Source of the DNA: a virus
IMG/VR virus record: IMGVR_UViG_3300036828_000667
Location: 32,001-96,000 of that record
Length of the DNA: 64,000 nucleotides
Direction: 5' to 3' (one strand)
This document shows, one piece after another, positions 2,436 to 47,567 of the stretch. The stretch's first letter is position 1; the number at the start of each line of letters is the position of its first letter. The position numbers were made by a program, and so were the translations under genes. The notes under the pieces are model-generated. The model worked only from the letters and a program-made list of their open reading frames with translations. It ran no database searches and was not told the origin of the DNA.

Positions 2436-2515
2436 TGCATACCGCCCCTCTCCAGGCCGCTGCACGGCATACCGAACCGCCCCTGCCCTGACCAAAGCAC
2501 ACCGCACCATACTTT
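2436..2515 (+). ncRNA. Pentamer-code unit (NCC/NGC-NN)n, stand-alone
   Basis: TGCAT ACCGC CCCTC TCCAG GCCGC TGCAC GGCAT ACCGA ACCGC CCCTG CCCTG ACCAA AGCAC ACCGC ACCAT ACTTT; upstream TTGCCA(2401)-N18-TAAGAA(2425). Confidence 0.75.
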
Positions 2516-2537
2516 CTCCCTTTTTCATCACCCAACT

Positions 2538-7269: not shown

Positions 7270-7314
7270 GACCTAACATCCCTCTTGACTTTCAGACTGA
7301 CCTATGCTCACATC

Positions 7315-7386
7315 ACCACTTCACCCCGAACCGACCCGAACCATGCCACCCCGATCTGCACCCGTCCGCTCCATACCACACTTTTT
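7315..7386 (+). ncRNA. Pentamer-code unit, stand-alone
   Basis: ACCAC TTCAC CCCGA ACCGA CCCGA ACCAT GCCAC CCCGA TCTGC ACCCG TCCGC TCCAT ACCAC ACTTTTT; upstream TTGACT at 7285 (weak -10). Confidence 0.75.
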
Positions 7387-8137: not shown

Positions 8138-8180
8138 CGGTCACCCCTTGACTTCCAAACCAACCCATGCTTACGTGACC

Positions 8181-8229
8181 GTCTATCCCATCCGAACCAG
8201 TCCAATCCTATCCTATGCACACCGCACAG
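8181..8229 (+). ncRNA. Pentamer-code unit, stand-alone
   Basis: GTCTA TCCCA TCCGA ACCAG TCCAA TCCTA TCCTA TGCAC ACCGC ACAG; TTGACT(8148)-N18-TACGTG(8172); hairpin follows. Confidence 0.75.
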
Positions 8230-8264
8230 AATGACCTAAGAGAAATCTTAGGTCATTCGCTTTT
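8229..8264 (+). terminator. Hairpin with GAAA tetraloop after pentamer unit
   Basis: GAATGACCTAAGA-GAAA-TCTTAGGTCATTC (perfect 13-bp stem) followed by GCTTTT. Confidence 0.75.
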
Positions 8265-8476
8265 CAATCAGTGTCATAACCATCTGCGCTATAGTAGTTA
8301 TTTTCGTGGTACGGACACTCTTCTCTCATGAGAGCTAAGCAACGGCGAATAGATGCACTGCTTGTCCCATAGGACTCAACCACGTGGTCGCACCTTGAAC
8401 AAGTAACCTTGACACTGGGAACTTCCCCGTGATCACCTTCCAATTCGATTTCATCTATGGTACATTTTACCTTCAT
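8264..8476 (-). CDS. Hypothetical Cys-containing protein
   Basis: CSRC and RRCL..MREECP motifs. Confidence 0.5.
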   Translation of the reverse strand: MKVKCTIDEIELEGDHGEVPSVKVTCSRCDHVVESYGTSSASIRRCLALMREECPYHENNYYSADGYDTD

Positions 8477-8728
8477 GGCGCATCGTCAGGCCAGTATTTG
8501 AACTGGTTCCTAGATTGCCAATTATATATAGGTTGCCAGATCCCAATCTTCGCTAGTAGCTTCAAATACAATGGAGCGGCAGCATGACAAGCAACTAGCA
8601 TCTGATCGTAATGATCGTTGTGAGCCTTGATCCGGTCAAGAAAGGGAGTCTCTCCCTTCGTATGTTCACCGATTGATCCCATATCCCCCTCCACTTGACT
8701 CACAAAGATTATTTGGCTACTATCCAAA

Positions 8729-8781
8729 CGCGAGCCAAACCGGTCCACTCCACGCCCCTCCTTCGCTTACCGATCCACACA
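8729..8781 (+). ncRNA. Pentamer-code unit, stand-alone
   Basis: CGCGA GCCAA ACCGG TCCAC TCCAC GCCCC TCCTT CGCTT ACCGA TCCAC ACA; promoter TTGACT(8695)-N17-TACTAT(8718). Confidence 0.75.
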
Positions 8782-8811
8782 GAATGGCCTGAGAGAAATC
8801 TTGGGCCATTC
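8782..8811 (+). terminator. Hairpin with GAAA tetraloop, homolog of the 8229 hairpin
   Basis: GAATGGCCTGAGA-GAAA-TCTTGGGCCATTC; 13 bp including two G.U pairs on the + strand. Confidence 0.7.
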
Positions 8812-11245: not shown

Positions 11246-13203
11246 GGTTCCAAACTTCCTAGTTTTACTATATAGTCTTATAACCCATGTTTTTAGATAG
11301 GTAAGCGTAGCTGACCTGTCATCAAAGCTGACCTGGACCCCGGCAGACCCCATCTGGCACCCTCCCGGAGCCCTCAGACTGGACAAAGACTATAAAATAA
11401 AGTTACTTTACAACAGACAGCAAGATAGAAATCTCAACCAGAGTTTCTGATTGAGATCCCTCACATCAACTTTCTCACAGTCTCTGCAAGTTTCTCTCGT
11501 GGTACCGAAGCCAACTGCCGGAATATATCATCGACAGGAACCTTCTTCGCCATGGCAATCTCGTTGGAAATTTCGCTGATATGGGCCAAATATTCATAAT
11601 GCGACATCGTAGTAGTCTCCCTTAGTGTAAGGCCATGCATGGTCGATAGGAAACCCAGGAAGGTCTCCCTTGTTGCCAACTTCATGGTCCGTACGAGGTA
11701 GCTCACCCACGGTCTCCATTCACGACCTTTTACAAAAAAGGTCTTTGCAGTGGTCAATCGATCAATCGAGCCACTGGCTATTCTCTTTGCTGTCCCACGT
11801 CGTTCTTTTCTTTGTCTGTCTGTCACTCTACTTATCGATTGGCAAGACGCCAAACCTGAGTCTTGTAGGCAAACCGGTCAACACTCATGACCCTTCAAAG
11901 GCGTGAACCTTCTCTTTAGGTCCCACCTTCAGGTCCTCCCTAGGTCCGGCCTAGATCCCTCCTTACAACACATTGCACATCTCCGACAACCATGAAAACA
12001 ACAAAAAGTTTCAATTTTCCTCGACAGCCTCTCGGATGGCAAACTGTAGAGCTTCGATCGTAGGAATGATCTCCATTAGCTCCTCCAGGTTTGTATCAAC
12101 CAAGTCTTCATGCTGTCCGTCTTCAATCAATCTATAAGAAGTAGTCAAGGTACGTCTGAAAGAAGCGAACCTCTTGCATGTCTCAATATGGTTTTCAGCC
12201 AGTTCTATAGTTAGTTGTTTCATGTAGTAGGTTTTCCTGTTGTGCTAGTTTAACTGAGATAAGGGCGGTAGGTCCCCTCGATCCCTCCCCAGCCCAGCCC
12301 CTCCCGGCATTGTCAAGCCTGTACTGTGTATAACATGTGAAATTTGGCATTTGCAAGGCTTTGGGAACCATGCTACGGTATGTACCTGAAAATCGAGGTC
12401 AGACTTCCTCTGAGAAGCCTGAGTTATTACTATTGCCAAAGACCATAAGTCAAAACTACTACCAATTAACTATAGGAGATTTGCCGGTACAATTGTCCCA
12501 CCAAATCCGAATACAACTCAGAGGTGTAATTGCTTGTAATTGCTATCCTAGCCTGGGAGAGCGGTAGGGAGCCCTGTGGTTAATCCGACTCGCACCCCTA
12601 CCCTTGTCAGGCTGGTCACTGAAATCATCACCAGCGGCCTTCCCTGGAGCTTGACGGAGGGATCGAAATGAAACCGATGTGGTGTAGCTACTGCGGCTCT
12701 AAGAACCATACCTATCGGCTATGCCCATTATAGCATGTCCAAAGACCCATATCAGTACTGCTAACCGTGATCCAGACCATTATGTGAAGGATAAATCCTA
12801 ATGAACCATATGAGAAACTTTAGCACCGTTATCGATAATGGAAAAGTCCTATACATCTGGGGTAGTTCCAGGATAGTAGGATGGCTTCTGACCAACATCA
12901 TCGTAGCAATAATAGCATGGTTTGGAGTAGCTTGGATTACATAAGACAGCTGCGAAGGGGGAGGGGGTTATGGCTTATCAGTCCATCGAAAAGTGCATTC
13001 TAGACTGTTCTGATTTAGTCAAAAGAGGCATCACGATCCACCAGAAGTGGACGTGTCACGAGCCCTAATACAATTCACTACTCAGGACGATGTGAAAAGT
13101 GTAAGAAAGCGAGTCGTATCAAGGAATGCGGCTATATAACAAGTCGAACTCTGGTAGCTGATATATCCTTGGAAAAGATCAGAATTAAAGTTATCAAATA
13201 AAG

Positions 13204-13493: not shown

Positions 13494-13633
13494 AAAGTAT
13501 GGTGTGGTATGCTGCGGTGTGGTTCGAGGGGCCGCGGGCTGGTTTGGTTAGGGTTGCAGAACACAGTATGAACTAAAGTATGGTGCGGTATGCTGAGGAT
13601 TGCGATGGTCTGCGCTGGGTCGCTGTGCTAGGC
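13494..13633 (-). ncRNA. Two tandem pentamer-code units (13494-13557, 13575-13633)
   Basis: + strand AAAGTATGGTGTGGT... and AAAGTATGGTGCGGT... (reverse complement ends ACCRC ACCAT ACTTT); minus-strand promoter TTGACT(13668-63)-N17-TATGGC(13645-40). Confidence 0.75.
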
Positions 13634-15183: not shown

Positions 15184-15391
15184 AAAAGTATGGTGCGGTG
15201 TGCAGCGGTTAGGCATGGGATGGGCGGGCTGGCGACGGCGAGGCACGGGTTGCATTGGTGTGGGTTGGTAGGATAGAGGACAAAGGACCAGAAGATTAGA
15301 TATCCTCTGATCCTTTGAACAGATGTGCGGTTTGGTATGCTGTGGGCCGGCACGGCTGGGGGTGGCGCGGGAAGGCTTGGCATGGCTTGCA
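15184..15391 (-). ncRNA. Two tandem pentamer-code units (15321-15391, 15184-15273) separated by a hairpin (15281-15317)
   Basis: NN-GGN/GCN periodicity on + strand; promoter TTGACT(15426-21)-N17-TAGTCT(15403-15398) on minus strand; 16-bp stem with two G.U pairs on minus strand. Confidence 0.78.
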
Positions 15392-15433
15392 CCAAAAAGA
15401 CTACTACCAAACTTACCGCTAGTCAACCACTAT

Positions 15434-17433: not shown

Positions 17434-17805
17434 TTGGACTTGCGCCTAGGATGGAGAATACCCAGGAGGATTGGCAAGATCCTTGGTTACCTGGAAGGGT
17501 TCAAATCCCTACATCCCTTGCCCTTAAGAAAGTTCAACCTTCCACCAAAAATAGGGGAAAGACCTTTGAAGAAAGAAAAGAAGGAGAAGGAGAACAAGGC
17601 ATATACTATAGCCGACGAACTATCCAATTGGCTAACTAAAAACAAAGTAGATATAGGTGATGCTATCGATGCCATGGCTAGGTTAATAGGATTGGCTGTA
17701 GGTGTCAGCGTAGACTATGAGGAAATAGAAACCATACTACAGAATATCTACAAGGAAAGTCTCAAAGCGGCGTACTTTTCGTATAAAAAGAATCAAGCTA
17801 ACTAG
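17434..17805 (+). CDS. Hypothetical protein
   Basis: 123-aa ORF followed by a hairpin. Confidence 0.45.
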   Translation: MDLRLGWRIPRRIGKILGYLEGFKSLHPLPLRKFNLPPKIGERPLKKEKKEKENKAYTIADELSNWLTKNKVDIGDAIDAMARLIGLAVGVSVDYEEIETILQNIYKESLKAAYFSYKKNQAN

Positions 17806-17907: not shown

Positions 17908-17974
17908 AAATTGTGCGGTTTGGCCTGCAGCGGAGCGGATAGGCTAGGTTCGGATAGGCAAGGAAAGGCGTGGT
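17908..17974 (-). ncRNA. Pentamer-code unit, stand-alone
   Basis: + strand TTGTGCGGTTTGGCCTGCAGCGGAGCGGATAGGCTAGGTTCGGATAGGCAAGGAAAGGCGTGGT; promoter TTGACA(18016-11)-N17-TAAGGG on minus strand. Confidence 0.75.
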
Positions 17975-18027
17975 ATGAACAATCACTCCCTTAGCCTAGC
18001 TCACAAAAGCTGTCAAGGTTCTTTTCG

Positions 18028-20376: not shown

Positions 20377-20438
20377 AAATTGTGCGGTATGGGATGCATG
20401 GGGCAGGTCCGGCAGGGTAAGCGTCGGGGTGGGGTGGA
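20377..20438 (-). ncRNA. Pentamer-code unit, stand-alone
   Basis: + strand ATTGTGCGGTATGGGATGCATGGGGCAGGTCCGGCAGGGTAAGCGTCGGGGTGGGGTGGA; promoter TTGACA(20474-69)-N17-TAATGA on minus strand. Confidence 0.75.
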
Positions 20439-20711
20439 CAAAGCTTCATTACTATCATTGCAATCCATTGTCAAGAAGTCTAAAATCAAGCCTCCCGTCC
20501 TCCCCTGGCTGGAGCATAGGATGAAAAAAGGCCCATATCGCAGAAGAACCCTTGTCAGAAAATACAGGTTTCATCCCTATGAGAATTTTGAGTCAGGTAA
20601 GGGATGGAACCTTCCCCATAACAGAAAAAGGGTAAAGAAACATCATGGTCCAGCACTAAATAAACTAGGTCAATTAAGACGTTTTTGGATTACTGTTACA
20701 AGAACATACAG

Positions 20712-24445: not shown

Positions 24446-24483
24446 AAGTCATCCTCTGTTTTTGAAATGACAGAGGATGACTT
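24446..24483. terminator. Perfect 14-bp hairpin at the 3' end of a minus-strand pentamer unit
   Basis: AAGTCATCCTCTGT-N10-ACAGAGGATGACTT. Confidence 0.65.
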
Positions 24484-24545
24484 GTGCGGTTTGGTTAGGA
24501 ATGCAGTGGCTCGGCAGGGTTCGCTTCGGTTTGGTATGGTTCGAA
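24482..24545 (-). ncRNA. Pentamer-code unit, stand-alone
   Basis: + strand TTGTGCGGTTTGGTTAGGAATGCAGTGGCTCGGCAGGGTTCGCTTCGGTTTGGTATGGTTCG; promoter TTGACA(24581-76)-N17-TACGTC on minus strand. Confidence 0.78.
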
Positions 24546-24565: not shown

Positions 24566-25183
24566 TTGACCGTCTTGTCAAATGGGTGCAAAATGTCCAA
24601 GAAGTTCTCAATATCAGTGGACCATAATGCATTAAGGCAATTTCCGTTTCTGGATCGACTCCAGAAACAACAATTCCCCATTTCAACCCTCAATGAAGTT
24701 ATGTACGTTCTTGAAAATAGACCTGAAGGATTCAAAATCGAGTTGGTTTATAGTGTATTGAAAGTGTCGTTAATTAACGTCAATAGAGACACCAATGACG
24801 ACTACTTGGGATTGCCGAAGATTGAAGGTCAGTTGAAAGACCTGTGTGATGTGATCAGAGAGACCACGTCATATGGAACACGTGGGGGAGTCGACCCAAG
24901 GACACAAATATATTATAGTAGGAAGTCGTCTATTCTACAGGGTAGTAACCTTAGTGATGATGCTCTGATAGCTCCTAATTATGTTTCTAATAGAGGTTTG
25001 AGAAAACGCCATCCTCTTGATCTTGTGTCCACAGAAGAGGTCGTTAAAAGAAGGGAACTTGCTAACCGACACTGGCAAGAACAGAAAAAAGAGCAACGAA
25101 GAAAACAACAGTCCAGTATCAACTCAAAAATCCGGAATGCTCAGGACTTTTTGACAAGAAGCAATTTTGACAAGAAGCAATAA
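24566..25183 (+). CDS. Hypothetical protein
   Basis: 205-aa ORF (start probably the internal Met). Confidence 0.5.
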   Translation: MTVLSNGCKMSKKFSISVDHNALRQFPFLDRLQKQQFPISTLNEVMYVLENRPEGFKIELVYSVLKVSLINVNRDTNDDYLGLPKIEGQLKDLCDVIRETTSYGTRGGVDPRTQIYYSRKSSILQGSNLSDDALIAPNYVSNRGLRKRHPLDLVSTEEVVKRRELANRHWQEQKKEQRRKQQSSINSKIRNAQDFLTRSNFDKKQ

Positions 25184-25195: not shown

Positions 25196-25200
25196 TCTTC

Positions 25201-25265
25201 GGCGAACCGGTCCAATCCGAACCGACCCTATCCCTACCGGACCCTTGCACAGCATACCGCACATC
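25201..25265 (+). ncRNA. Pentamer-code unit, stand-alone
   Basis: GGCGA ACCGG TCCAA TCCGA ACCGA CCCTA TCCCT ACCGG ACCCT TGCAC AGCAT ACCGC ACATC. Confidence 0.8.
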
Positions 25266-29648: not shown

Positions 29649-30176
29649 ATGGCAAAACACAATGAAGAAAATGATCTATGGTTCCTTAGCAAAATCGCAG
29701 ATGGAACCATTTCTGTATCCGAAGACGGAGAGGTCTTCAACAACAAGACAGGTAGATATATAGGCGCTCAACAAGGAGCAGGTTACCTTAAGATTTCTAT
29801 GGCAAAGAGAGTTGATGGAAAACTTGTTATTGTCCATATGCAAATCCATAGGTTAGTATGGCTACATTTCAAAGGACCTATTCCTCAGGGACTAGAAGTC
29901 AATCACAAAGATTTAAACAAATCGAACCCACGATTGTCAAATCTAGATTTACAAACACCCAAAGGGAATGCTGAACATGCCACCTTAAATGGTGTTGACC
30001 GACGCTCAAAAACAGGAGGCCATAAAAACGCTAATGCCAAATTTACACGTGAACAAGTCGAGATGCTACGGAGACAATTCAAATCGAAAGAAACCACAGT
30101 TAAAGAAATAATGATAAACTATAGTGTTTCTAAGCCAGTTGTGTATTGGATGCTGGAAGGAAGGACCTATAAATAG
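29649..30176 (+). CDS. HNH endonuclease
   Basis: 'IHRLVW.HF.GPIP.GLEVNHKDLNKSN..LSNL...T..GN..HA'. Confidence 0.85.
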   Translation: MAKHNEENDLWFLSKIADGTISVSEDGEVFNNKTGRYIGAQQGAGYLKISMAKRVDGKLVIVHMQIHRLVWLHFKGPIPQGLEVNHKDLNKSNPRLSNLDLQTPKGNAEHATLNGVDRRSKTGGHKNANAKFTREQVEMLRRQFKSKETTVKEIMINYSVSKPVVYWMLEGRTYK

Positions 30177-30201: not shown

Positions 30202-30531
30202 ATGGTAGAATTTGGAGCGTTCATTCGCAAAGAACGAGAGGCCAGAGATATTAGCTTACGAAAGATGGCCAAGAAGATTGGTGTAAGTGCAACCTATCTA
30301 TCACAAGTGGAACTTGATAGGTTCCCACCACCAACTGAGGATAGGGTAAAGGCTATTGCCAAGATCATTGACTGTAATCCTGACTACCTACTGGCCAAAG
30401 CTGGACGGATCTCGACCGACATTTCCGACATCATTAAACGTCGTCCGATCGAGCTTTCGATGCTTATTCGAGCCGCCAAGTACTTGAGTAACGATGACAT
30501 TGCCCAATTGATTAATGCGGCGTCAGCGTAG
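30202..30531 (+). CDS. XRE-family HTH transcriptional regulator
   Basis: 'FGAFIRKERE...SLRKMAKKIGVSATYLSQVE..R..PP'. Confidence 0.85.
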   Translation: MVEFGAFIRKEREARDISLRKMAKKIGVSATYLSQVELDRFPPPTEDRVKAIAKIIDCNPDYLLAKAGRISTDISDIIKRRPIELSMLIRAAKYLSNDDIAQLINAASA

Positions 30532-30811: not shown

Positions 30812-30884
30812 CGCCTACCGTACCACTCCGACGCCAACCACACCGAGCCGGTCCATACCTTTCCAAACCAAACCACACTTTTTT
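30812..30884 (+). ncRNA. Pentamer-code unit, stand-alone
   Basis: CGCCT ACCGT ACCAC TCCGA CGCCA ACCAC ACCGA GCCGG TCCAT ACCTT TCCAA ACCAA ACCAC ACTTT TTT; TTGACA(30777)-N18-TAACAT(30801). Confidence 0.8.
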
Positions 30885-31409
30885 ATTACTACTAGATATT
30901 CAGGAAAGGCGAACATGAGAGGTTAGGTTAAACTAACTTCGTTCTTCCTTTAGCTCAGCTACAAACTTCTTAATCAGAGTTGTTAAGGTTGGAGTGTGCT
31001 TAGCTGGAAAGTTACCAGCAAGTACCTTGGCAATAGCATACCGAATTACCTTAAACTCTTCCTCAGTTAGCTCCAACGTTATCACTAGGCACCTCGCCTT
31101 TCTTTATCACGCTAACCTTACTATCATCGATCTTCAGAGTAAACCTCTTATTATCCACAACTTCTCGCCATCTATTTTCCTCAATATAAGCACAGGCTTT
31201 AAGGTAGTCCGTCAAACAAAAAACATGAGTATGTATCTGTGACCAACACGGATGCTCACGGCATAAGTGTTCAATCTTGGCGGCTAACTCCCTGAGTGGT
31301 GATTGCATACCCAACCTCCCTTTTGTGTGACCATAAAGTTACACTTAAATTGAATCTGATTCTGGGAATTGACCTGCCAAGGCTGATAGGCGAAAACTCA
31401 TATTGCAAG

Positions 31410-31479
31410 GTCGAACCGCTGCCTTGCTTGCCAAACCGGGCCAAGCCGGCGCGGACCAAACCTCCGCACACCGCACAAT
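31410..31479 (+). ncRNA. Pentamer-code unit in the leader of the Cas7-like gene
   Basis: GTCGA ACCGC TGCCT TGCTT GCCAA ACCGG GCCAA GCCGG CGCGG ACCAA ACCTC CGCAC ACCGC ACAAT; followed by a 13-bp hairpin at 31477-31514. Confidence 0.8.
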
Positions 31480-31533
31480 GGGAGTAGTCAAATGGCTTGC
31501 AGACTACTCCCATTAACACAGGAGTAAAACAAC

Positions 31534-32175
31534 ATGCTAATTTCAGTCACGATCTCCGGAATCCGACCTTTAATCCTCGACGCGTTTTCCGAGGAAGCGT
31601 TGCTTAAGGGGAAGGGAGGAAAGAGTACAGCCCAGCCCAAGGAACTGAGTCCCTTGGATCAAGCCAAGCGTAGGTTATACTATAATGGAGATGGTACCGA
31701 CGTTCCTATATTCCCAGCAGACAACCTACTCAGCTGTATCATCGCTGCCGGGCGGTTTATCAAGGTCGGGAAAAGGCAACTAACTACTCGCGACAGTACG
31801 ACAGTAACTTCATTCCTACAGATATCAGAACTATATCTTCCCATTAGGTCGATAGATGGATGGCGAGTCGACTCCAGGAGCATCGTCAACCCGTCTACAA
31901 AAGGTCGTCACATATGCTACCGTCCCATCTTTGACGACTGGGAGTTAGATTTCACGCTCGACATCGATACGAATGAAGCGAGCGACAGCTTGGTTAGACA
32001 GTTGATTGATAGAGCAGGTAGGTTTATCGGGATCGGGGTCATGCGGCCCGAAAGGAAGCGGCAGTATGGGCAATACGTGGTGCGCTGCTGGGATTGCCGT
32101 TCAGAACATGAAGAGCTTGACAACATACCAAAACTTGCTAAGAAAACTAAGACTAGATCGAAAGAACTAGTCTAA
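31534..32175 (+). CDS. Cas7/RAMP-like putative RNA-guided effector protein
   Basis: Beta1 'ISVTISGIRPLIL'; 'PIFPADNLLSCIIAAG' (RAMP P.IP...LK motif); 'RPIFDDWELDFTL'; C-terminal Gly-rich loop 'GIGVMRPERKRQYGQY'; GGAG RBS; flanked by pentamer units. Confidence 0.7.
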   Translation: MLISVTISGIRPLILDAFSEEALLKGKGGKSTAQPKELSPLDQAKRRLYYNGDGTDVPIFPADNLLSCIIAAGRFIKVGKRQLTTRDSTTVTSFLQISELYLPIRSIDGWRVDSRSIVNPSTKGRHICYRPIFDDWELDFTLDIDTNEASDSLVRQLIDRAGRFIGIGVMRPERKRQYGQYVVRCWDCRSEHEELDNIPKLAKKTKTRSKELV

Positions 32176-32186
32176 CACTGGTTCAT

Positions 32187-33422
32187 CGCGGACCGTACCG
32201 GAGCGTGCCATGCCCGTCCCCGCCGAGCCCGACCAAACCAGACCCAACCTACGCGGACCCAGCCTATCCTTAGCGTAGCACACCGCACAGTTAAGGCCAA
32301 AACCAGAAGGAAGGAGATACGGAAATGAAACCACGCATCTCCTTCCTTCAAACCCAAGTTTCGAACAATCCATGCCACTGCAAACCGCGCCAGCCCTATG
32401 CCTACCACTGTGAACCGCTCCACACCATTCTTTTATCAATTATCAAGTCAACACTCCGAACCAGACCCCGCCTTACCCAACAGCACCCCACCAAACCGGA
32501 CCGACCCACTCCAATGTGCACCTCAGCAGACCGAAGCACACCATACTTTATCAATTGCCTTCCCGACCCGAGCTATGCCCAACCGACCCGACCCACTCCG
32601 GGCCGCACCCCTCCCTCCCATCCCGCAGCACACCATACTTTATTTCATTACGACTCTCCGGCCCTACGCCAACCACACCAGCCCGGAGCGTGCCATACCG
32701 CACCATACTTTTATCATTTCAATGCGCACCGTCCCTCACCGTGCCATCTCTCACCCGACCATACCATCCCTCCCCACCTCGGCCCGGACCCCGCCGATGC
32801 AAACCACACCATACTTTATCAATTTTCAGAACCATCCCGACCGTACCAGTGCGCGCCATTCCAATGCAGCCCTCGCCTCCGCATGTCAGGCCGCCCCGAC
32901 CCATGCCGCACCAAACCACACTTTCTTTATCAACTAAGGAGAACCAGCATGACCACACATCGTCCCACATTCGAAGACTGGCAGCTAGACTTCACTTTGG
33001 ATTATAATGAAACTGAAATAGATGAAGGTACTATACGTAAGCTAATCGAAGTAGTAGCTGGAACGCACATAGGACTTGGCTCTATGCGCCCAGAACGACA
33101 TGGACCCTATGGACAGTTTAAGATCAAGGAATGGACTCCACATTCTTAGTCTTATCCATCTCTGCTTACCGTAGCCCTCATCACCGCACCCGTGAGCACC
33201 GACCCATGCCTGAGCCTACCTCAGCATACCCAACCGCAGCAACCCGGTGCGAACCAAACCACACTATTTTTTATACAATTTCAACTTACCGTCCCGGCCC
33301 GAGCCAGTCCATCGTGCGCCGACCCGTCGCTCCCCATACCGCACTATACTTTATTCATTACCAACCATGCCATACCATGCCATTCCGGAACGCTGCCCTC
33401 CGGTCCACACCACACTTTCTTT
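32187..33422 (+). repeat. Array of 10 pentamer-code units (candidate guide-RNA array)
   Basis: Units at about 32187-32289, 32369-32434, 32455-32549, 32557-32641, 32657-32712, 32723-32817, 32830-32928, 33163-33272, 33283-33352 and 33364-33422; each (NCC/NGC-NN)n, most ending in an ACCAT-ACTTT-like tail plus an AT-rich linker. Confidence 0.88.
32949..33149 (+). CDS. 66-aa mini-paralog of the C-terminal third of the Cas7-like protein
   Basis: AAGGAG RBS; MTTHRPTFEDWQLDFTLDYNETEIDEGTIRKLIEVVAGTHIGLGSMRPERHGPYGQFKIKEW aligns with RPIFDDWELDFTLDIDTNEASDSLVRQLIDRAGRFIGIGVMRPERKRQYGQYVVRCW. Confidence 0.75.
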   Translation: MTTHRPTFEDWQLDFTLDYNETEIDEGTIRKLIEVVAGTHIGLGSMRPERHGPYGQFKIKEWTPHS

Positions 33423-33436
33423 AGGAGTTTAACCAG

Positions 33437-33682
33437 ATGGCAAAGGTAACTGGTATTGACGGTAAAAGCTTTATCAAAGGTCAACGTTTTGGTAAGCTAG
33501 TTGCGGTACGTCCACTAGGCTGGAGTAGTGACCGCAGCTGGTGTTGGCTATGTAAGTGTGATTGCGGCAATGAGACTATCTTAAGTGCTAACAGACTTCG
33601 AAGTGGTGAAGTTCAAGCTTGTGGATACGCTGTAACTATAAAATCAGACACAAATGAGGAACACTGTAACGGACAGATATAA
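33437..33682 (+). CDS. Truncated HNH-associated N-terminal domain
   Basis: 'GQRFGKLVAV...WLCKCDCGNE.......LRSG..QACG' with no nuclease domain. Confidence 0.55.
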   Translation: MAKVTGIDGKSFIKGQRFGKLVAVRPLGWSSDRSWCWLCKCDCGNETILSANRLRSGEVQACGYAVTIKSDTNEEHCNGQI

Positions 33683-35024: not shown

Positions 35025-35083
35025 CTCGAACCGACCCCGTCCAGGCCACTCCTCCGCCCACCGACGCAAACCGCACAATTTTA
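35025..35083 (+). ncRNA. Pentamer-code unit, stand-alone
   Basis: CTCGA ACCGA CCCCG TCCAG GCCAC TCCTC CGCCC ACCGA CGCAA ACCGC ACAAT TTT; TTGACA(34990)-N18-TACGAT(35014). Confidence 0.8.
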
Positions 35084-35650: not shown

Positions 35651-35750
35651 ACCATACCGAGCCGAGCCGTTGCCGCACCATACTTTATCAATTTGATTCC
35701 CACCACACCTCCCCGGACCTATCCAGCCCCCTGCAAACCGCACCATACTT
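35651..35750 (+). ncRNA. Two short tandem pentamer-code units (35651-35686, 35697-35750)
   Basis: Both end CCGC ACCAT ACTT; same TATCAATT linker as in the main array. Confidence 0.7.
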
Positions 35751-35766
35751 ACTTGTAATATAAATA

Positions 35767-36159: not shown

Positions 36160-36295
36160 TGCGTACCGACTCTTTCCGGACCGGACTGTACCACACTATA
36201 CCATACCTCACCTACCCATACCTCGCCTAACCACGCCTTTGCGACCCGGAGCGTGCCTCGCCTACCCAATGCGACCCTGACCACAGCACACAATT
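36160..36295 (+). ncRNA. Long pentamer-code unit (about 27 pentamers)
   Basis: TGCGT ACCGA CTCTT TCCGG ACCGG ACTGT ACCAC ACTAT ACCAT ACCTC ... ACCAC AGCAC ACAAT. Confidence 0.75.
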
Positions 36296-36352: not shown

Positions 36353-38278
36353 CTACGCAATTCTTTGAAACCTATCACCAAGAGACTGCAACGTATCCCT
36401 TATAGAGCCGTAAGCTTCATATACGTTGCTGGGCGTGTCGTAAAGCGACTGTACCGCATTATAAGTCGCAGCGCATAGGCTGTCCGCCATGTCGCAATGA
36501 CTACCTTCTAATTGCGCCTTCACGACCTTATTATTTTCGAACCAGATGGATTCCAGTTCCTTCTTCAAGTCACGCATCATTCCAGTTTTGAGGCAATCAG
36601 TCGCGACAATGTTACTAAGAACATCATATGGTGTACGTGTCTTTTCCACGCTCAACACCTCCACAGTCTCAGCATACCCTATCGATGTAAGCTTCTGTAT
36701 CAATTGTTCACTCTGATATTGGTCAGCTGTGAAAGTCTTGAACCCTAGACCATAGTAATCTCTCAAGTCTATAATGAACTCCTTGACTGCTTCCAAATTG
36801 ATACGGTTTGGACTTGTGATCCTTAGAACCAAATCAGCGACGTATATCACCTTGCCTGTCCGGCTAAGCTCCTTGTGGACTACGGATAGCCCAGCTGAAC
36901 TCACAGCAGCACCGTCCCAAGCTCCGTATCTAGTAGCCGCTGGATATCTTTTCCATCTGTATCCTTCAGGCGTAGCTATAAACAAGTCTCTCGGTAGCTG
37001 CTCTCGTAGCGGGGCTGGGATAGGCTGATTGGCATTACCAAGAGGTGCCGAAACATAAAGAATCGGGCAGAGGTTTGGATCTTCGACTTTGCTGAGGTCA
37101 TCGAAAGGCACCTCCTGACCCATGCTCGCTTGACCAGCTAGATTCATCAGGGATTGCTCTGTCCTTCTTTCAAAGTCACGTTGATATCGCTTAGGGACTT
37201 TCACTAGTGTACAAGACGGTGGAAGATCAAACTTGTCATTCTCAGCTAGTACACTTTCTCTAGGTTCAAGTACCCTTGATGGGTGTCTTTGAGTACCACG
37301 CATACACCAGAAGTGACCATCATGTTTAAGCGCATCAGGATACTTGGTATCCCATATGGAGTACTGACTGACTTTACCAGCTGGATCATTTCGAAGCTGG
37401 GCGATGTGAGTAGCCATAACCCCCTTCTCATGAGCAATAGAAGACAATAGAGTCATTAGCGTATAGCGGACTCCCAAGAACCTGGACCTTATGCGTTCAA
37501 AGATGTTGTCATATAGTGTAAATGCCTTGTCTACGAGACCCTTGCTACCAATTCGAAATTCTGCCTCGTCGAGCATACCTCCAAACACATCTTCACCCAG
37601 AACATGTCGATCCTGTGATCCAGCGTAAATCTTTACGTTATTAGGAAACTCAAATCCTTCTCCATTGAATACCCATGGTGTAAGTTTCTCTAATTCAGGA
37701 TCGTTCTCAAATTCAAGGAAGTCCCTTAAATGATTCACCTTCCTGTAGTCCTTACAGGCTGAGAGCAATATCCCAACACGTTCAATCAGAGTGCTCTGGG
37801 CCTTCTCCTTAGTAACAGTAAACAGCTGTAGGATCATCGGCTTTGATGGGCCGGTACCCATACTCAGCTGAGGATTCCTGAAAGAGTTTATCCTGTAAAC
37901 ATTATACAATTGTGCTATTAAACCAGCAGTGCTCTTACCAGTGCCAATAGCACCAGTTACTCCCCATCTACAGATAATAGATTTAGGAGCAAATATCTCA
38001 ATCAAATCCTTCTTCCAGTTAGGAAACAAGATTAGTGCATCATCCCCTATATAATCAGGAGTTAGAAACTCTTCTATAGTAGGTATTGGTCTCTTGAAAC
38101 ACATAGTAGTCAAGTCAGGGACTTCTTTAAAATGACCTAGCATTGTCAACGCTAGGCCAAGACGTTTCTTCTCAGGTGGAATCTCCCTAAGTCGAGGGTT
38201 TCTGGCGTCCATATCCAACATAAACTGAGCAAACTCGCTAGACTCAGCAATTCTGTCAAGCTCCACAGGATCTATCAT
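36353..38278 (-). CDS. terL: Terminase large subunit
   Basis: Walker A 'TGAIGTGKS', Walker B 'GMLDEAEF', 'TADQYQS' and C-terminal nuclease 'CDMADSLCAA'. Confidence 0.85.
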   Translation of the reverse strand: MIDPVELDRIAESSEFAQFMLDMDARNPRLREIPPEKKRLGLALTMLGHFKEVPDLTTMCFKRPIPTIEEFLTPDYIGDDALILFPNWKKDLIEIFAPKSIICRWGVTGAIGTGKSTAGLIAQLYNVYRINSFRNPQLSMGTGPSKPMILQLFTVTKEKAQSTLIERVGILLSACKDYRKVNHLRDFLEFENDPELEKLTPWVFNGEGFEFPNNVKIYAGSQDRHVLGEDVFGGMLDEAEFRIGSKGLVDKAFTLYDNIFERIRSRFLGVRYTLMTLLSSIAHEKGVMATHIAQLRNDPAGKVSQYSIWDTKYPDALKHDGHFWCMRGTQRHPSRVLEPRESVLAENDKFDLPPSCTLVKVPKRYQRDFERRTEQSLMNLAGQASMGQEVPFDDLSKVEDPNLCPILYVSAPLGNANQPIPAPLREQLPRDLFIATPEGYRWKRYPAATRYGAWDGAAVSSAGLSVVHKELSRTGKVIYVADLVLRITSPNRINLEAVKEFIIDLRDYYGLGFKTFTADQYQSEQLIQKLTSIGYAETVEVLSVEKTRTPYDVLSNIVATDCLKTGMMRDLKKELESIWFENNKVVKAQLEGSHCDMADSLCAATYNAVQSLYDTPSNVYEAYGSIRDTLQSLGDRFQRIA

Positions 38279-44033: not shown

Positions 44034-47000
44034 TCATGTATAAGGCTCTCTTTGTACGTTACTGAAGTCAAGTCTCATTTTTCCAGTCACCAACTTACGT
44101 GACTGGCCAAGCGATAAGGCAAAGGCTCCACGAGCTATGAATAGCTCTCCCATTGATCGCACACTCTCTACCTCTTCGTCAACAGTAATATAAGTCTTGA
44201 CACCGTATGCGGATAGCCTACTATCCAAGGCTTCTACTGCGGTCTGCTTACTTTCATGAAACTCAGAAGATATAATAGGTCCATCAACTACAGCGTTCTT
44301 TAACTCTACCATCTGGTCTCCAGACACACCAATCTCATACTCTGCTTTAATCGGTATGTTGAATTCTTCAACTACTTTGTCTATAACGTATCTGGGGAGA
44401 GCAGAGATGATTTTTGGCAAGTCAGCGATCTGTACGTCCAAATCAGCCGCGTCATGAGTAAAGCAATCAATCCTTGCAGACATGTCTTGGTCTAGAGTAT
44501 ACTCACTCATATAGTAGATACCTAGCCCAGCAAGAACAGAAGAAGCATTTTGGATCGGGTAATTCTGGGCATTCCTAAAAGACTCTGATATAAACATGCG
44601 AAGCTTCTTATCTACCTCTCTATTAGAACTAAGTTTGACCTTTCTGGAGAACACGTTTTCCAACAGCTGATCTTTACTCCACTGGCTTAGAGATAGAGCT
44701 TCATGCGGTAGTCCTACGTCGTAAATAGGGTCTCCTAAGGGAGTCAAGATGTAGCCGTTTTCTAGTAAGAAGCTGTGCTGTGCTTTTATCCATATCTCTA
44801 TGTTAGGAAACGTGCTGAAAAGCTGGGTGAATATATACTTAGCCAATTGGATATTACCATTTAAAAATTTAATTGCAAAACTTGGTGGACTATCTCCATA
44901 TAGAACAGCAAACACAGCGCTCTTGGCATAACGACGCTCTTGCTTTGTAATCTGCTTTTCTGGTTTACCCCAAATCTTGCTGGCAATGAACAGATGAATG
45001 TCTGCACCTTCACGGAACTTCTGAAGCAAGGCTTCGTCCTTGGCTATAGTCGCCAGAACACGGATTTCACTCTGACTCAAGTCCCAATGGAGTCTAACAC
45101 CGTCAATAAATCTAGATACCATAAGGTCAATAAGTTCTCCTGCGGGCACGGTATGGTCCCCACTGCGGAACCTTTTTGTTACCGCAGTACACACTCCGAA
45201 GGAAGTCTCTTTGATCCAAATTTTGTCTGTTGGCGTCTTCTCTGTCCAACCTGGATGTCTCAGAGCCCGAACGTTTCTCTTATCTACTAGCGTTGCATTA
45301 CCTCTCCCAACGTCTCCCCAAATGTAAGTCGAATAAACCTTCATTACCTTCTTGTATAATCGGAACAGAAATACGATACGAAACTCATCTACCCAAGTTG
45401 ATTTGTCGTCTACATTAACACCACCAATATGCCAAAAAGCATTGTAAATATCCTCAATAACTTCTGAGGCCATACCCGGCAATGTCCACCCGTAAAATTC
45501 GATAAACACTTTTATTTCTGGAGGAGTAATCTTTATGTTATTATCATCTTTCCAAAGTTCAGATGAATTTGCAGGATGGTTTTGAACCTTGTTTCCAATA
45601 CACTCAGATGCCTCTACTAGAGTATCAACCACCTTGAACCGTTCTGCTGAGTCAGATTCCGCTAGCACTTGTTCAAGTGTAGGACCTAGTACAGGGTATT
45701 CCTTAAAACATTCATCCTTGCTATTCTGATACTCCTTGAATACAGTAAAAAGCATCATAAGGAATTTCAGTCTAGGCGTTACGATAAGCTTTGAAAACCT
45801 ATCCCTCGTATCCTTGTGATTGGACCTTGGATTGAAAAACTTCGTCAGATTGTCTAGCTCAGTAGTTGTCTGGATTTCAAGAACGTCCTGAGTATTATCA
45901 ATTACGGGGACAAAGGTCTGATCGGTACTAAGAGACGACGGCAATATCTTTTGAAATCTAGGGATCATTAGTATCGATCTAAGGGAGTCTATCGCTGTAT
46001 CAAGATATACCTTATCAAGCTTTGTAGCTAACTCGTCATTCCAGGCAATTCCAGAGGCCTCCAACTCGAACCCGAGCTTGCCTAGATTATTATAGATTTC
46101 AGATACCCGGACTAGACCAAGTTTCTGGACTTCCTCTCCCAGATGGTCTTTCAACCGATCCGTAAATTCTATATCCCTAATAGCATACGGAGCTATGATC
46201 TCAACAGGTACATCAGTGAACTTGTCCTCAAAATCCTTGTCAGTAGACCGCTGTATGATCAGAGTGAAAAACCGTTTGCAAAATTCAGTATATCTTTCTC
46301 TATTGTAATACTTCTTAGCTAATCTATTGATTTGGACGAAGTCAGTTCGAAGGTTTACGATCCTATCAGTAGGCTTTTTAACTGCATCAAACCATGCAAT
46401 CAGAGTATCAATAGAGTTACATTTACTGTCTTGAATAAAAATAACCTCTTCCCTAATCCTGCCCTTGTAGGTTGGCTTTACGTACTTGATGATCTTCTGG
46501 AGAAGGCTGTTCCACTCATCGACTTCAGCATCCCATGTCTGTATACCTAGTCGAGTGCTAGCGATCTCTTTCAAACCGCCGCTACGACCTAGACACCTGT
46601 TCATCATCATTACATCAAGAACGTCTCTAATATATACTCCGAAATAACTTAGGCTAGCGGCACATTCATATTGGAGATTGAATACTATCAGTTTCTTTGA
46701 TAGAAGCCATACTCCAATCTTGGCTTTCAGTTTATCAGGAATGACGAATTCTCCAGGTGTTCGCCAAAAATTATAGAGCATAACGTAAACACAGGTCTTA
46801 GTCGTCCTGCCCTTAAGAGCAAGGCCACCGACAAAGTAATTATAGTGATACGTATTGAGGCCTGATGCTTCATAGTCCAATACCACTTCAGTATCGTTTT
46901 TGAAAATTTCTTCAACTCTAGACCATTCTAGTACGTCAATCACCTCATACTTAAGTATATTGGATACAGTTTCTTTCTTAAAGCCACTCCAAGCTCTTTT

Positions 47001-47567
47001 AAGGTCGCCAATCAACGTCTCGAAGGACTCAGAAGTCCCTCGGGTCAGAATGCCCCAACCACTGACTCTCAGCACGAAGCTTGGATGGTAGGTGACAAAG
47101 ACTGGAATGTCAAGATAGCTATAGGTGTGGACTCTAGCCGCCCCTACAGACGTGTCTATATCAAAAGCCGACATAGCAGATTTTCCAGTCAATAAAATCA
47201 CTTTAGGCCTTGTCTTCTCTATATCCTTCCGTAGAAATACAGAGTACTTTTGAATCTCATGATGCTCTGGTGTCCTATCTTTAATTCTGGACCCTTCTCT
47301 AACTATAGGACGATATGGAATTACGTTGAAGTATCGTATCTTAGTAGGATCAATATCACCAGTCTTTGCAGCTTCAACAATCGCCCGGTCCAGTGTTTGT
47401 CCCGCAGGACCTACGAACGGCGTACCCTGTTCAACTTCTTCTTTACCAGGACCTTCTCCTGCTATATATAAATGTACATCAGTATAACAACCTTTTGGCC
47501 CTACAAACAGTGGATCAAGTCCAGGACCTGGGTTTACTAAGCTGTCAGTCAATTCTAAACTAGACAT
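44034..47567 (-). CDS. Family A DNA polymerase with N-terminal family-4 uracil-DNA glycosylase domain
   Basis: UDG 'GEGPGKEE...PFVGPAG', 'TYHPS'; 3'-5' exo 'LDYEASG','FNLQYE','YAIRD'; polymerase motifs 'DLSQSEIRVLA','RRYAKSAVFAVLYG','NYPIQ','HD'. Confidence 0.9.
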   Translation of the reverse strand: MSSLELTDSLVNPGPGLDPLFVGPKGCYTDVHLYIAGEGPGKEEVEQGTPFVGPAGQTLDRAIVEAAKTGDIDPTKIRYFNVIPYRPIVREGSRIKDRTPEHHEIQKYSVFLRKDIEKTRPKVILLTGKSAMSAFDIDTSVGAARVHTYSYLDIPVFVTYHPSFVLRVSGWGILTRGTSESFETLIGDLKRAWSGFKKETVSNILKYEVIDVLEWSRVEEIFKNDTEVVLDYEASGLNTYHYNYFVGGLALKGRTTKTCVYVMLYNFWRTPGEFVIPDKLKAKIGVWLLSKKLIVFNLQYECAASLSYFGVYIRDVLDVMMMNRCLGRSGGLKEIASTRLGIQTWDAEVDEWNSLLQKIIKYVKPTYKGRIREEVIFIQDSKCNSIDTLIAWFDAVKKPTDRIVNLRTDFVQINRLAKKYYNRERYTEFCKRFFTLIIQRSTDKDFEDKFTDVPVEIIAPYAIRDIEFTDRLKDHLGEEVQKLGLVRVSEIYNNLGKLGFELEASGIAWNDELATKLDKVYLDTAIDSLRSILMIPRFQKILPSSLSTDQTFVPVIDNTQDVLEIQTTTELDNLTKFFNPRSNHKDTRDRFSKLIVTPRLKFLMMLFTVFKEYQNSKDECFKEYPVLGPTLEQVLAESDSAERFKVVDTLVEASECIGNKVQNHPANSSELWKDDNNIKITPPEIKVFIEFYGWTLPGMASEVIEDIYNAFWHIGGVNVDDKSTWVDEFRIVFLFRLYKKVMKVYSTYIWGDVGRGNATLVDKRNVRALRHPGWTEKTPTDKIWIKETSFGVCTAVTKRFRSGDHTVPAGELIDLMVSRFIDGVRLHWDLSQSEIRVLATIAKDEALLQKFREGADIHLFIASKIWGKPEKQITKQERRYAKSAVFAVLYGDSPPSFAIKFLNGNIQLAKYIFTQLFSTFPNIEIWIKAQHSFLLENGYILTPLGDPIYDVGLPHEALSLSQWSKDQLLENVFSRKVKLSSNREVDKKLRMFISESFRNAQNYPIQNASSVLAGLGIYYMSEYTLDQDMSARIDCFTHDAADLDVQIADLPKIISALPRYVIDKVVEEFNIPIKAEYEIGVSGDQMVELKNAVVDGPIISSEFHESKQTAVEALDSRLSAYGVKTYITVDEEVESVRSMGELFIARGAFALSLGQSRKLVTGKMRLDFSNVQREPYT

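What the first reader, a model, noticed from the sequence alone, without database searches (positions are those of the whole stretch)
32187..33422. The array is a constant-triplet / variable-dinucleotide code rather than a simple repeat
Unit 32455-32549 parses in register as TCC-GA ACC-AG ACC-CC GCC-TT ACC-CA ACA-GC ACC-CC ACC-AA ACC-GG ACC-GA CCC-AC TCC-AA TGT-GC ACC-TC AGC-AG ACC-GA AGC-AC ACC-AT ACT-TT. Position 3 is almost always C and position 2 is C or G, while positions 4-5 vary freely and differ between units. Register holds over about 10-22 pentamers with almost no indels, whereas a slipping microsatellite would homogenise and drift in phase. This implies selection on phase and information stored in the NN positions (inference).
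Basis: partly seen in the sequence, partly recalled or inferred. Interest (0 to 1): 0.9.

Follow-up and report, generated by a model that had tools for sequence, protein, structure and literature searches.

The report
Phage VIPR guide-RNA array, C-anchored variant
The five-base rhythm is real: it is the guide-RNA array of a VIPR system (a CRISPR-like phage system for RNA-guided DNA silencing, first described in 2026), so the "code" is already known, but this soil phage appears to write it with CC instead of GG and places many guides beside a silently recoded copy of the gene they spell.

Summary
Window 32187-33422 holds 10 tandem units of N-(C/G)-C-N-N pentamers in strict register. The 113.8-kb record has 29 such units; shuffles give 0-1.

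The interpretation, that information sits in the NN positions, is supported, but it rediscovers a published code. The gene just upstream (31534-32175) is a Vipr protein (profile hit to PDB 36pp "SUSP1 Vipr", E 1.8e-14; Cas7/Csm3 fold). VIPR guides alternate a fixed triplet with NN, and NN reads codon positions 1-2 while the wobble base is skipped (bioRxiv 10.64898/2026.04.26.720920). Here only that 1-base-skip rule gives hits above shuffles. All six hits lie 60-1500 nt from their unit, inside a neighbouring gene.

Three points differ from the published type.
- The fixed pair is CC on the vipr strand, with promoters, 3' handle and hairpins on that strand. The two G-contacting G-loop residues of SUSP1 Vipr (D177, W178) are V and M in a monophyletic CC clade.
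- The base before CC tracks the codon's purine/pyrimidine class (44/49).
- About ten guides sit next to a near-cognate but synonymously diverged resident gene.

This scan has already recorded VIPR in several hundred genomes, including C-anchored arrays and a guide linked to its "antidote". Verdict: known kind, new variant, moderate interest.

The parts
31534..32175 (+). vipr gene (213 aa, P0001), a lone RAMP/Cas7-like protein
   Evidence: Profile A1 hits PDB 36pp_D 'SUSP1 Vipr protein', E 1.8e-14. AF2 model pLDDT 83; top Foldseek hits are Csm3/Cas7. 95 homologues found, none with a Pfam domain. G-loop reads GIGVMRP where SUSP1 has GVGDWRP.
31426..31475 (+). Stand-alone guide unit upstream of vipr; triplets spell LLKGKGGKSTA (Vipr residues about 23-33); 13-bp hairpin follows (about 31477-31513)
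   Evidence: NN 18/22; hairpin z -4.6.
31600..31632 (+). Near-cognate resident site of unit 31426, inside vipr
   Evidence: 11/11 amino acids identical. Two Leu codons and one Ser codon are switched to the other codon family.
32026..32082 (+). Near-cognate resident site of array unit 1, in the G-loop region of vipr
   Evidence: 17/19 amino acids identical, score 95 against a shuffle maximum of 38. NN 32/36 but the base before CC matches in only 1/17.
32188..32277 (+). Array unit 1 (handle GCACACCGCACA runs to about 32297; 13-bp hairpin at about 32306-32350)
32370..32429 (+). Array unit 2
   Evidence: no in-genome match.
32451..32535 (+).
   Evidence: no in-genome match; exact NNx scan of IMG/VR found nothing.
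32553..32642 (+). Array unit 4
32658..32712 (+). Array unit 5
32724..32813 (+). Array unit 6
   Evidence: exact NNx scan of IMG/VR found nothing.
32836..32930 (+). Array unit 7; ends just before the ribosome site and ATG of the vipr fragment
   Evidence: exact NNx scan found nothing.
32949..33149 (+). Truncated second vipr (66 codons, equals the C-terminal third; G-loop GLGSMRP)
   Evidence: 49% identity to Vipr residues 129-186, E 2e-20.
33184..33238 (+). Array unit 8
33284..33343 (+). Array unit 9
33365..33414 (+). Array unit 10; ends at the ribosome site of ORF 33437-33682 (HNH-endonuclease-like N-terminal piece)
2442..2516 (+). Dispersed unit
7311..7385 (+). Dispersed unit with TTGACT upstream, opposed to flanking minus-strand genes
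8177..8231 (+). Dispersed unit with TTGACT upstream and a hairpin plus T-run; spells YHESNYYT of ORF 8264-8476(-) at 8285-8311
   Evidence: (NN 16/18).
8725..8784 (+). Dispersed unit with TTGACT-17-TACTAT upstream and a hairpin; spells KGTTPFLD against the resident KGETPFLD at 8635-8658(-)
12269..12322 (+). Short dispersed unit
13513..13552 (-). Dispersed unit (second of a pair)
15184..15273 (-). Dispersed unit
15321..15395 (-). Dispersed unit with TTGACT upstream and a 16-bp hairpin; spells KMKFATQVGT of ORF 15434-15847(-) at 15632-15661
   Evidence: (NN 21/26).
17909..17983 (-). Dispersed unit with TTGACA upstream; weak match FLYE*YAA at 17766-17789(-)
20378..20442 (-). Dispersed unit with TTGACA upstream
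24480..24544 (-). Dispersed unit with TTGACA upstream and a 14-bp hairpin
25197..25261 (+). Dispersed unit with TTGACA upstream and a terminator; spells NEDYLGL against the resident NDDYLGL at 24794-24814(+)
30813..30887 (+). Dispersed unit behind TTGACA-18-TAACAT
35026..35075 (+). Dispersed unit behind TTGACA-18-TACGAT
35693..35752 (+). Dispersed unit (preceded by a short further unit ending about 35692)
36176..36285 (+). Dispersed unit read antisense: its reverse complement spells VQSLYDTPSNVY at the C-terminus of gene 36353-38278(-) (site about 36390-36458)
   Evidence: (score 72).

Best explanation
The stretch is the main guide-RNA (vrRNA) array of a VIPR system (Viral Interference Programmable Repeat) in an uncultured soil phage.

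Mechanism, taken from the published SUSP1 work and not tested here: the product of gene 31534-32175, a Vipr protein, polymerises along each guide with one protomer per pentamer. It buries the fixed bases and presents the variable ones. These pair with double-stranded DNA so that the fixed part of each pentamer corresponds to a single skipped target base, the codon wobble position. Binding silences transcription.

Shown here: the Vipr homology and fold; the pentamer statistics; and that only the 1-base-skip reading finds real genes, wobble-aligned and in either orientation.

Inferred here, with my own odds:
(a) In this clade the RNA is the C-rich strand, N-C-C-N-N with a 3' handle CACACCGCAC(C)ATACTTT, a mirror of the published G-G-Y-N-N (about 0.7).
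(b) The base 5' of CC is also informative, so guides are close to codon-for-codon copies of coding sequence (about 0.6).
(c) The guides are aimed at rival relatives' alleles of the phage's own genes, vipr included. Each guide is kept beside a synonymously diverged, and therefore spared, resident allele, like a linked weapon and antidote (about 0.5).
For: Identity as VIPR:
- Profile A1 hits PDB 36pp 'SUSP1 Vipr protein', E 1.8e-14.
- The AF2 model (pLDDT 83) matches Csm3/Cas7 backbones.
- In 128 fetched homologue loci, pentamer tracts lie beside the gene wherever my strict filter detects any.

Code:
- PFM and register.
- Only skip = 1 beats shuffles: 6 units, all within 60-1500 nt.
- Peptide-level hits for about 10-12 units lie 70-400 nt away, against about 0.25 units (or about 1.5 of the 174 unit-by-frame searches) expected to have a best hit that close by chance.
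- Codon-position identity is p1 70/85, p2 83/85, p3 20/85.

C strand:
- TTGAC[AT] lies 26-46 nt upstream on the C strand in 12/29 units, where about 1.2 are expected.
- A conserved 3' handle is followed by 13-16-bp hairpins, z -3.8 to -8, some with T-runs.
- In at least 8 related loci a C-strand unit ends 10-25 nt before vipr's ribosome site.
- SUSP1 itself has 1 + 3 GGTNN tracts co-directional with vipr and no CC tracts.
- G-loop D-[FYW] goes with GG co-directional tracts and [VS]-M with CC, with no exception. These are the residues that contact G1 and G2 in the cryo-EM structure.
- The CC clade is monophyletic, SH-aLRT 97, nested among GG types.

Third base:
- In split codon boxes 44/49 share the R/Y class, p 8e-9. 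Only 14/44 are identical, p 0.02. Fourfold boxes look random, 7/36.
- 27/28 units have a stop-free reading against a null of 22.8, p 0.008.

Self-sparing:
- 10/14 conserved Leu/Ser/Arg codons sit in the other codon family, p 0.04.
- Guide 32188 against resident vipr gives NN 32/36 but 1/17 at the third base.
Against: - No RNA data exist for this phage, so the transcribed strand, the ends of the guides and their binding to Vipr are all inferred.
- The G-loop/strand correlation rests on one evolutionary switch, so it counts as a single event.
- The -10 hexamers are weak, and TTGAC is absent upstream of units in the relatives (0/46).
- The discovery paper lists 'NNNGG' repeats among alternative types. 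This clade may already have been catalogued there, read on the G strand.
- No foreign allele that fits any guide better than the resident gene was found.
- Several resident sites reach the published 80% NN threshold for a target. By the published rule this phage would be targeting itself.
- The third-base signals are modest in size and are not reproduced in relatives.
Confidence: 0.8

Rival explanations
1. Classical polarity. The guides are G-rich RNAs (NNNGG/GGN-NN type) transcribed antisense to vipr, and the C-rich strand is only the complement. The system would then be an ordinary member of one of the published alternative repeat types.
For: On the G strand the semi-variable base directly follows GG, as in GGY, and is a pyrimidine in 59% of pentamers. 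The paper mentions NNNGG repeats. Hairpins are symmetric, so they would form on either strand.
Against: The promoter hexamers, 3' handle and T-runs are on the C strand. Units abut the ribosome site of vipr, or of the next gene, on the C strand in this phage and in at least 8 relatives. The Asp and aromatic residues that hold the two guanines are replaced throughout this clade. In SUSP1 and in L081 the tract strand is co-directional with vipr and ends in a terminator on that strand.
Confidence: 0.2
2. Autoregulation. The guides silence the phage's own neighbouring early genes, vipr included, as a timing switch. The resident near-cognate sites would be the true targets.
For: The best available match of about 10 guides is the resident gene next door, at 79-89% of NN positions, which is at or near the 80% threshold used in print. 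No better foreign allele was found.
Against: Selection for self-recognition should keep NN matched. Instead 10 of 14 conserved Leu/Ser/Arg codons are in the other codon family, and third-base identity within split boxes is below the 50% expected. The published surveys report self-match scores lower than non-self ones, and guides aimed at relatives' vipr at the same two gene regions, the early codons and the 3' end.
Confidence: 0.2
3. No guide function. The stretch is a slipping pentanucleotide microsatellite, a proline-rich ORF (32325-33149 is open), or a C-rich RNA that soaks up a ring-shaped or Rho-like RNA-binding protein.
For: Long open frames exist because C-rich DNA lacks stop codons. 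I first considered TRAP-like and Rho-binding RNAs, because the spacing fits 3 + 2 binding.
Against: The units share rhythm but not sequence, and TRF finds no array. The variable bases spell neighbouring genes in codon phase. A Vipr gene is adjacent, here and in 100+ related loci.
Confidence: 0.02

Closest known systems
Type II VIPR of Escherichia phage SUSP1 (Vipr + vap1 + four vrRNAs; bioRxiv 10.64898/2026.04.26.720920, .720927 and 10.64898/2026.10.15.759431; PDB 36pp)
   Same: A lone minimal RAMP protein, flanked upstream and downstream by units of 9-20+ pentamers with a fixed part and variable NN, followed by an invariant 3' end. NN reads codon positions 1-2 with the wobble base skipped. 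Sites occur on either strand. Some guides are aimed at vipr itself, at its early codons and near its 3' end.
   Different: The fixed pair is CC, not GG, on the strand co-directional with vipr (SUSP1 checked directly). The G-loop reads V-M where SUSP1 has D177-W178. The third fixed-triplet base is any base and is codon-informative, not a pyrimidine. The 3' end is a short in-register handle, plus a hairpin in solo units, with no pseudoknot tested. There are 29 guides spread over 52 kb rather than 4 at one locus. Several guides have at least 80% NN matches in their own genome. No vap gene was recognised.
Solo (orphan) vrRNAs of VIPR-null SUSP1-like phages and F5 satellites (bioRxiv 10.64898/2026.10.15.759431)
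   Same: Stand-alone guide genes scattered outside the vipr locus. Some target relatives' vipr. Self-match scores are lower than non-self ones.
   Different: Here the solo guides coexist with an intact vipr, and most lie within 70-400 nt of the resident homologue of what they spell.
Class 1 CRISPR backbones (Cas7/Csm3 filaments on crRNA)
   Same: The same fold, with one protomer per fixed step of the guide and periodic base flipping.
   Different: There are no CRISPR repeats, no other cas genes and no known spacer acquisition. The step is 5 nt of guide to 3 nt of target, not 6 to 6.
Free-standing homing endonucleases of T4-like phages with immune resident target sites (from general knowledge, not tested here)
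   Same: A weapon gene sits beside a target gene whose resident copy is protected by silent differences, so that weapon and immunity are inherited together.
   Different: Here the weapon would be a guide RNA for a DNA binder, and no cleavage is known. This is an analogy only.

Membership tests
VIPR system | Vipr protein: a minimal RAMP (RRM core, G-loop, thumb) homologous to characterised Vipr | tested here: met
   hmmsearch of profile A1 against PDB gives 36pp_D 'SUSP1 Vipr protein', E 1.8e-14, over 167 of 193 profile positions. Foldseek top hits are Csm3/Cas7, prob 1.00. The thumb Arg (YRP) and the G-loop Arg-Pro are conserved.
VIPR system | Tandem pentanucleotide repeats, fixed part plus hypervariable NN, at least 4-9 per unit, in the intergenic DNA flanking vipr | tested here: met
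   29 units of 8-23 pentamers. One lies directly upstream and ten directly downstream of vipr.
VIPR system | Fixed motif is GGY on the transcribed strand | tested here: inconclusive
   On the vipr strand the motif is N-C-C. Read on the other strand it is G-G-N with only 59% pyrimidine. Promoter, handle, terminator and G-loop evidence favours C-rich RNA, but there are no RNA data. The paper allows 'a related consensus' and lists NNNGG, YNNNG and NNNNG.
VIPR system | Invariant 3' extension (tail) after the repeat tract | tested here: met
   On the C strand every unit ends in (G)CACACC(G)CAC(C)ATACTTT or a close variant. L070 and other relatives share it. Seven solo units add a hairpin. The pseudoknot of the SUSP1 clade was not looked for.
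VIPR system | Targets follow the 1-nt skip rule, with the skipped base on the codon wobble position and sites on either strand | tested here: met
   (skip 0, 1, 2, 3 with shuffles). Nine or ten units are sense and one antisense, all wobble-aligned.
VIPR system | vrRNAs are expressed, co-purify with Vipr and direct dsDNA binding or silencing | not testable with these tools
   No RNA run is on record for this DNA. This needs bench work.
VIPR system | Accessory vap gene next to vipr (typical, used to define types) | tested here: inconclusive
   Neighbours are an HTH protein (30202-30531), an HNH endonuclease (29649-30176) and an HNH-like 81-aa ORF (33437-33682). None was compared with vap1-6, whose sequences I do not hold.
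CRISPR-Cas (class 1) | CRISPR repeat-spacer array and further cas genes (cas1/2, large subunit, Cas5/6) | tested here: not met
   No direct-repeat array other than the pentamer units. No PADLOC hit for Vipr or for the large neighbouring ORFs. It shares only the Cas7-like fold.
TRAP-type ring protein binding site (triplet + 2-nt spacer RNA) | About 11 (G/U)AG triplets with 2-3 nt spacers, and a TRAP-family protein | tested here: not met
   The fixed bases are CC and the unit length is variable (8-23 pentamers). No TRAP-like gene turned up among the roughly 30 ORFs I scanned. The idea was dropped once Vipr was identified.

The most novel reading that the evidence does not exclude
A derived clade of VIPR systems, so far seen only in metagenomes (mostly soil), has switched the anchor of its guide RNA from GG to CC through changes in the two G-loop residues that hold the guanines. 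It reads, or at least faithfully copies, all three codon bases. In this phage about ten guide genes are each genetically linked to a synonymously recoded, spared allele of the very gene they spell. The guides would then act as RNA-guided poison-antidote cassettes that spread by recombination among related phages.
Probability: 0.3. Interest if true: 0.8.

Novelty: new variant of a known kind. Interest (0 to 1): 0.5.

Why it matters
The kind of system has been in print since April 2026, so the code itself is not a discovery.

What could matter is the variant:
- If Vipr can be retuned from GG to CC anchors by two G-loop residues, the programmable-guide toolbox gains an orthogonal protein/RNA pair. 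The structural rules of anchor recognition also become testable by a simple residue swap.
- If the base before CC is read, this clade would discriminate synonymous alleles. That is the opposite of the published rationale, in which skipping the wobble base stops targets escaping by silent mutation.
- Ten guide and resident-allele pairs in one genome make a compact natural data set on how a phage avoids silencing itself, and on whether guides and their "antidote" alleles travel together.

Tried and rejected
- Rfam (gathering thresholds) and ARAGORN found nothing in the window. Megablast against cultured phages found nothing.
- tblastn of Vipr against 50,697 phage records hit only two Gordonia phages, at 25-27% identity.
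- Early ideas were dropped once Vipr was identified: a TRAP-like or other ring or filament RNA-binding site, a Rho (rut-like) sponge, G-quadruplex or i-motif DNA, primase sites, a tRNA-CCA mimic, and a translated proline-rich ORF.
- RNA evidence: no RNA holder is listed for this DNA, only two soil DNA runs, one of them possibly the source.
Homologue contexts came from the search for related loci instead.
- Search for natural targets:
  - All 29 guides against 1.84 Mb of fetched loci gave nothing above shuffles except vipr alleles for guide 32188.
  - Exact NNx patterns of three array guides found no match in IMG/VR.
  - Guides of 45 units from CC-clade relatives matched neither their own loci at the peptide level (one marginal hit) nor any fetched locus or this phage under the NNx rule.
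- The stop-codon test of the third base was not significant in relatives.
- The generic promoter and terminator scan was barely above its shuffles. Only the unit-anchored TTGAC count was informative.
- PADLOC had no match for Vipr or for the large neighbouring ORFs.
Full report
**1. The observation**

- Over 417 pentamers from 29 units, position 3 is C in 94%. Position 2 is C in 77% and G in 17%. Position 1 is A-rich but variable, and positions 4-5 vary.
- Only four words in all units depart from 5 nt.
- A blind scan for at least 6 of 8 in-phase CC finds 27 tracts in the window and 29 in the whole 113,838-bp virus record (the window is bases 32001-96000 of it). Shuffles give 0-1.
- Tandem Repeats Finder sees no array. 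The units share a rhythm, not a sequence.

**2. Anatomy**

The stretch 32187-33422 holds ten tandem units on the + strand. They split 7 + 3 around a 66-codon fragment of a second copy of the upstream gene. The other units are dispersed over about 52 kb, on either strand, and often opposed to the flanking genes.

Read on the C-rich strand, a typical solo unit has four parts:
- TTGAC[AT] about 30 nt upstream. This occurs in 12 of 29 units, where about 1.2 are expected.
- A body of 8-23 pentamers.
- A conserved end, (G)CACACCGCAC(C)ATACTTT, still in pentamer register.
- In seven cases a 13-16-bp hairpin 2-6 nt later, with z from -3.8 to -8. Some hairpins have a T-run.

Other units run straight into the ribosome site and ATG of the next gene.

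**3. What it is**

The gene just upstream, 31534-32175 (213 aa), has no Pfam or PADLOC match. It has 95 homologues in metagenomes.

- A profile of these homologues hits one solved structure: PDB 36pp, "SUSP1 Vipr protein", E 1.8e-14.
- An AlphaFold model (pLDDT 83) matches Csm3/Cas7 backbone subunits.

Three 2026 preprints describe this system, VIPR (Viral Interference Programmable Repeat).
- Vipr is a minimal RAMP protein of phages.
- Its guides (vrRNAs) are 9-16 YNNGG repeats followed by an invariant 3' tail.
- One protomer binds each repeat, buries GGY and presents NN.
- NN pairs with double-stranded DNA while one target base per repeat is skipped. In natural targets the skipped base is the codon wobble position, on either strand.
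- The outcome is transcriptional silencing of rival phages, satellites and rival vipr genes.

**4. Decoding in this genome**

I tested this claim.

- Translating N4-N5-N1' of each unit and aligning without gaps to the six-frame translation gives scores far above 20 codon-order shuffles for several units. Examples: unit 32188 spells IGVGVMRPERKRQYGQYLV against resident Vipr IGIGVMRPERKRQYGQYVV (95 against a maximum of 38). Unit 31426 spells LLKGKGGKSTA. Unit 15321(-) spells KMKFATQVGT. Two units upstream of the window also score well.
- Unit 36176 does the same in antisense (score 72).
- Weaker hits for 8177, 8725, 17909 and 25197 also fall within 70-400 nt of the unit. About 0.25 units (or about 1.5 of the 174 unit-by-frame searches) would have their best hit that close by chance.
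- With nucleotides alone, the four gap models behave as in the paper. Only the 1-base skip yields hits above all shuffles: six units, every one 60-1500 nt from the unit.
- In both the sense and antisense cases the base 5' of CC lines up with the wobble position.

**5. How it differs from the published type**

(a) Polarity.
- In SUSP1, which I fetched and scanned, one upstream and three downstream GGTNN tracts are co-directional with vipr, and there is no CC tract.
- Here the co-directional strand carries CC.
- Across 128 fetched homologue loci the rule has no exception. A G-loop reading G-D-[F/Y/W]-R-P goes with GG on the gene strand (about 60 loci with detectable tracts). A G-loop reading G-[V/S]-M-R-P goes with CC (17 loci plus this phage).
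- In the cryo-EM work D177 hydrogen-bonds G1, W178 stacks on G2, and D177A abolishes silencing. The alignment puts V169-M170 of this protein at those positions.
- The CC loci form one clade (SH-aLRT 97) nested among GG types. This is therefore one derived switch, and the correlation counts as a single event.
- In at least eight CC-clade relatives a unit ends 10-25 nt before vipr's ribosome site, and some units are followed by C-strand terminators. A GG-type relative, L081, ends its array in a G-strand terminator.
- Together with the promoters and the 3' handle, this favours C-rich guide RNAs, at about 0.7.
- The paper's methods mention "NNNGG" repeats, so this clade may already be catalogued on the other strand.

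(b) The third base.
- Where NN agrees with the resident gene (87 codons), the base before CC is identical in only 23.
- In split codon boxes it nevertheless has the same purine/pyrimidine class in 44 of 49 (p 8e-9).
- Within that class it is the same base in only 14 of 44 (p 0.02).
- Fourfold boxes look random, 7 of 36.
- 27 of 28 units have a stop-free reading against 22.8 under shuffling of that base (p 0.008). This test is not significant in relatives.
- The guides therefore look like coding sequence with saturated synonymous divergence from the resident gene, not NN strings with a free spacer.

(c) Self-linked near-cognates.
- Five or six guides match their resident neighbour at 79-89% of NN positions. 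The published surveys report no self-hit at or above 80%.
- Ten of 14 conserved Leu/Ser/Arg codons lie in the other codon family (p 0.04).
- Guide 32188 matches resident vipr at 32/36 NN but at 1/17 third bases. Foreign alleles give 25-29/36 and 3-8/17.

**6. Mechanism and rivals**

My best reading is as follows.
- Vipr-guide filaments bind matching coding DNA of related co-infecting phages.
- Each guide is kept next to a resident allele that has diverged silently enough to be spared. Recombination then cannot separate weapon from immunity.
- Two guides bracket vipr and spell its early codons and its G-loop, the same two regions reported for vipr-directed guides in Enterobacteriaceae phages.

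This reading is inference. No foreign allele that fits a guide better than the resident was found.

Two rivals remain open, each at about 0.2:
- Autoregulation: the guides silence the phage's own neighbouring genes.
- Classical G-strand polarity: the guides are G-rich RNAs transcribed antisense to vipr.

**7. Novelty**

The class is in print, and this scan has met it in several hundred genomes. Those include arrays judged C-anchored and one solo guide "linked to its own antidote". I did not check those notes.

- A direct comparison with SUSP1.
- The co-variation of G-loop residues with strand across 128 loci, and its single origin.
- The statistics on the third base.
- The number of guide and resident-allele pairs in one genome.

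I rate it a new variant of a known kind, of moderate interest.

**8. Limits**

- The record is about 77% complete, so targets of the silent array guides could lie in the missing part.
- The vap families and the type assignment could not be checked.

Noticed in passing
window 32949-33149 (+): A truncated second vipr: 66 codons, 49% identical to the C-terminal third of the intact gene. It has its own ribosome site and a G-loop of the GLGSMRP kind seen in the distant CC-clade locus L072. It splits the array 7 + 3, which suggests that a second VIPR locus was recombined in and then lost its 5' two-thirds.
   Followed up: partly
window 29649-30176 (+), 7402-7920 (-), 33437-33682 (+): Two HNH endonuclease genes and one HNH-like 81-aa piece lie among the guide units (Pfam HNH_3; PHROG 959 and 374). 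These are possible homing endonucleases in the same early region, and might act with or compete against the guide cassettes.
   Followed up: no
genome bases 16676-16770 and 20547-20616 (15.3 and 11.5 kb upstream of the window start): Two further guide units lie outside the window. Both spell peptides of oppositely oriented genes 170-380 nt away (GIYTFAIKIQYST and GIDEQPVYP).
   Followed up: yes
window 32278-32350 (+): Between array units 1 and 2 a 13-bp hairpin encloses a Shine-Dalgarno-like GGAGA and an ATG. The 274-codon ORF that starts there (32325-33149) is open only because C-rich DNA lacks stop codons.
   Followed up: partly
window 30202-30531 (+): A Cro/CI-type HTH protein gene lies 1 kb upstream of vipr. 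It is a candidate DNA-binding accessory (vap-like) or early regulator, and was not compared with the published vap families.
   Followed up: no
loci L081/L084/L085/L093 (IMG/VR, GC about 63%): GG-type relatives carry very long units (roughly 160-430 nt, about 30-85 pentamers) with the fixed triplet GCC/GGC fully constant, separated by a conserved AT-rich mark (…CAATCAA[T/C]AAA…). These are much longer guides than the 9-16 repeats described for SUSP1.
   Followed up: no
window 44034-47567 (-) and the rest of the record: The phage is distant from anything cultured. Its best DNA polymerase match is Xanthomonas phage phiXF1 at 30% identity. The source is a soil metagenome, and CheckV completeness is 77%.
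   Followed up: partly
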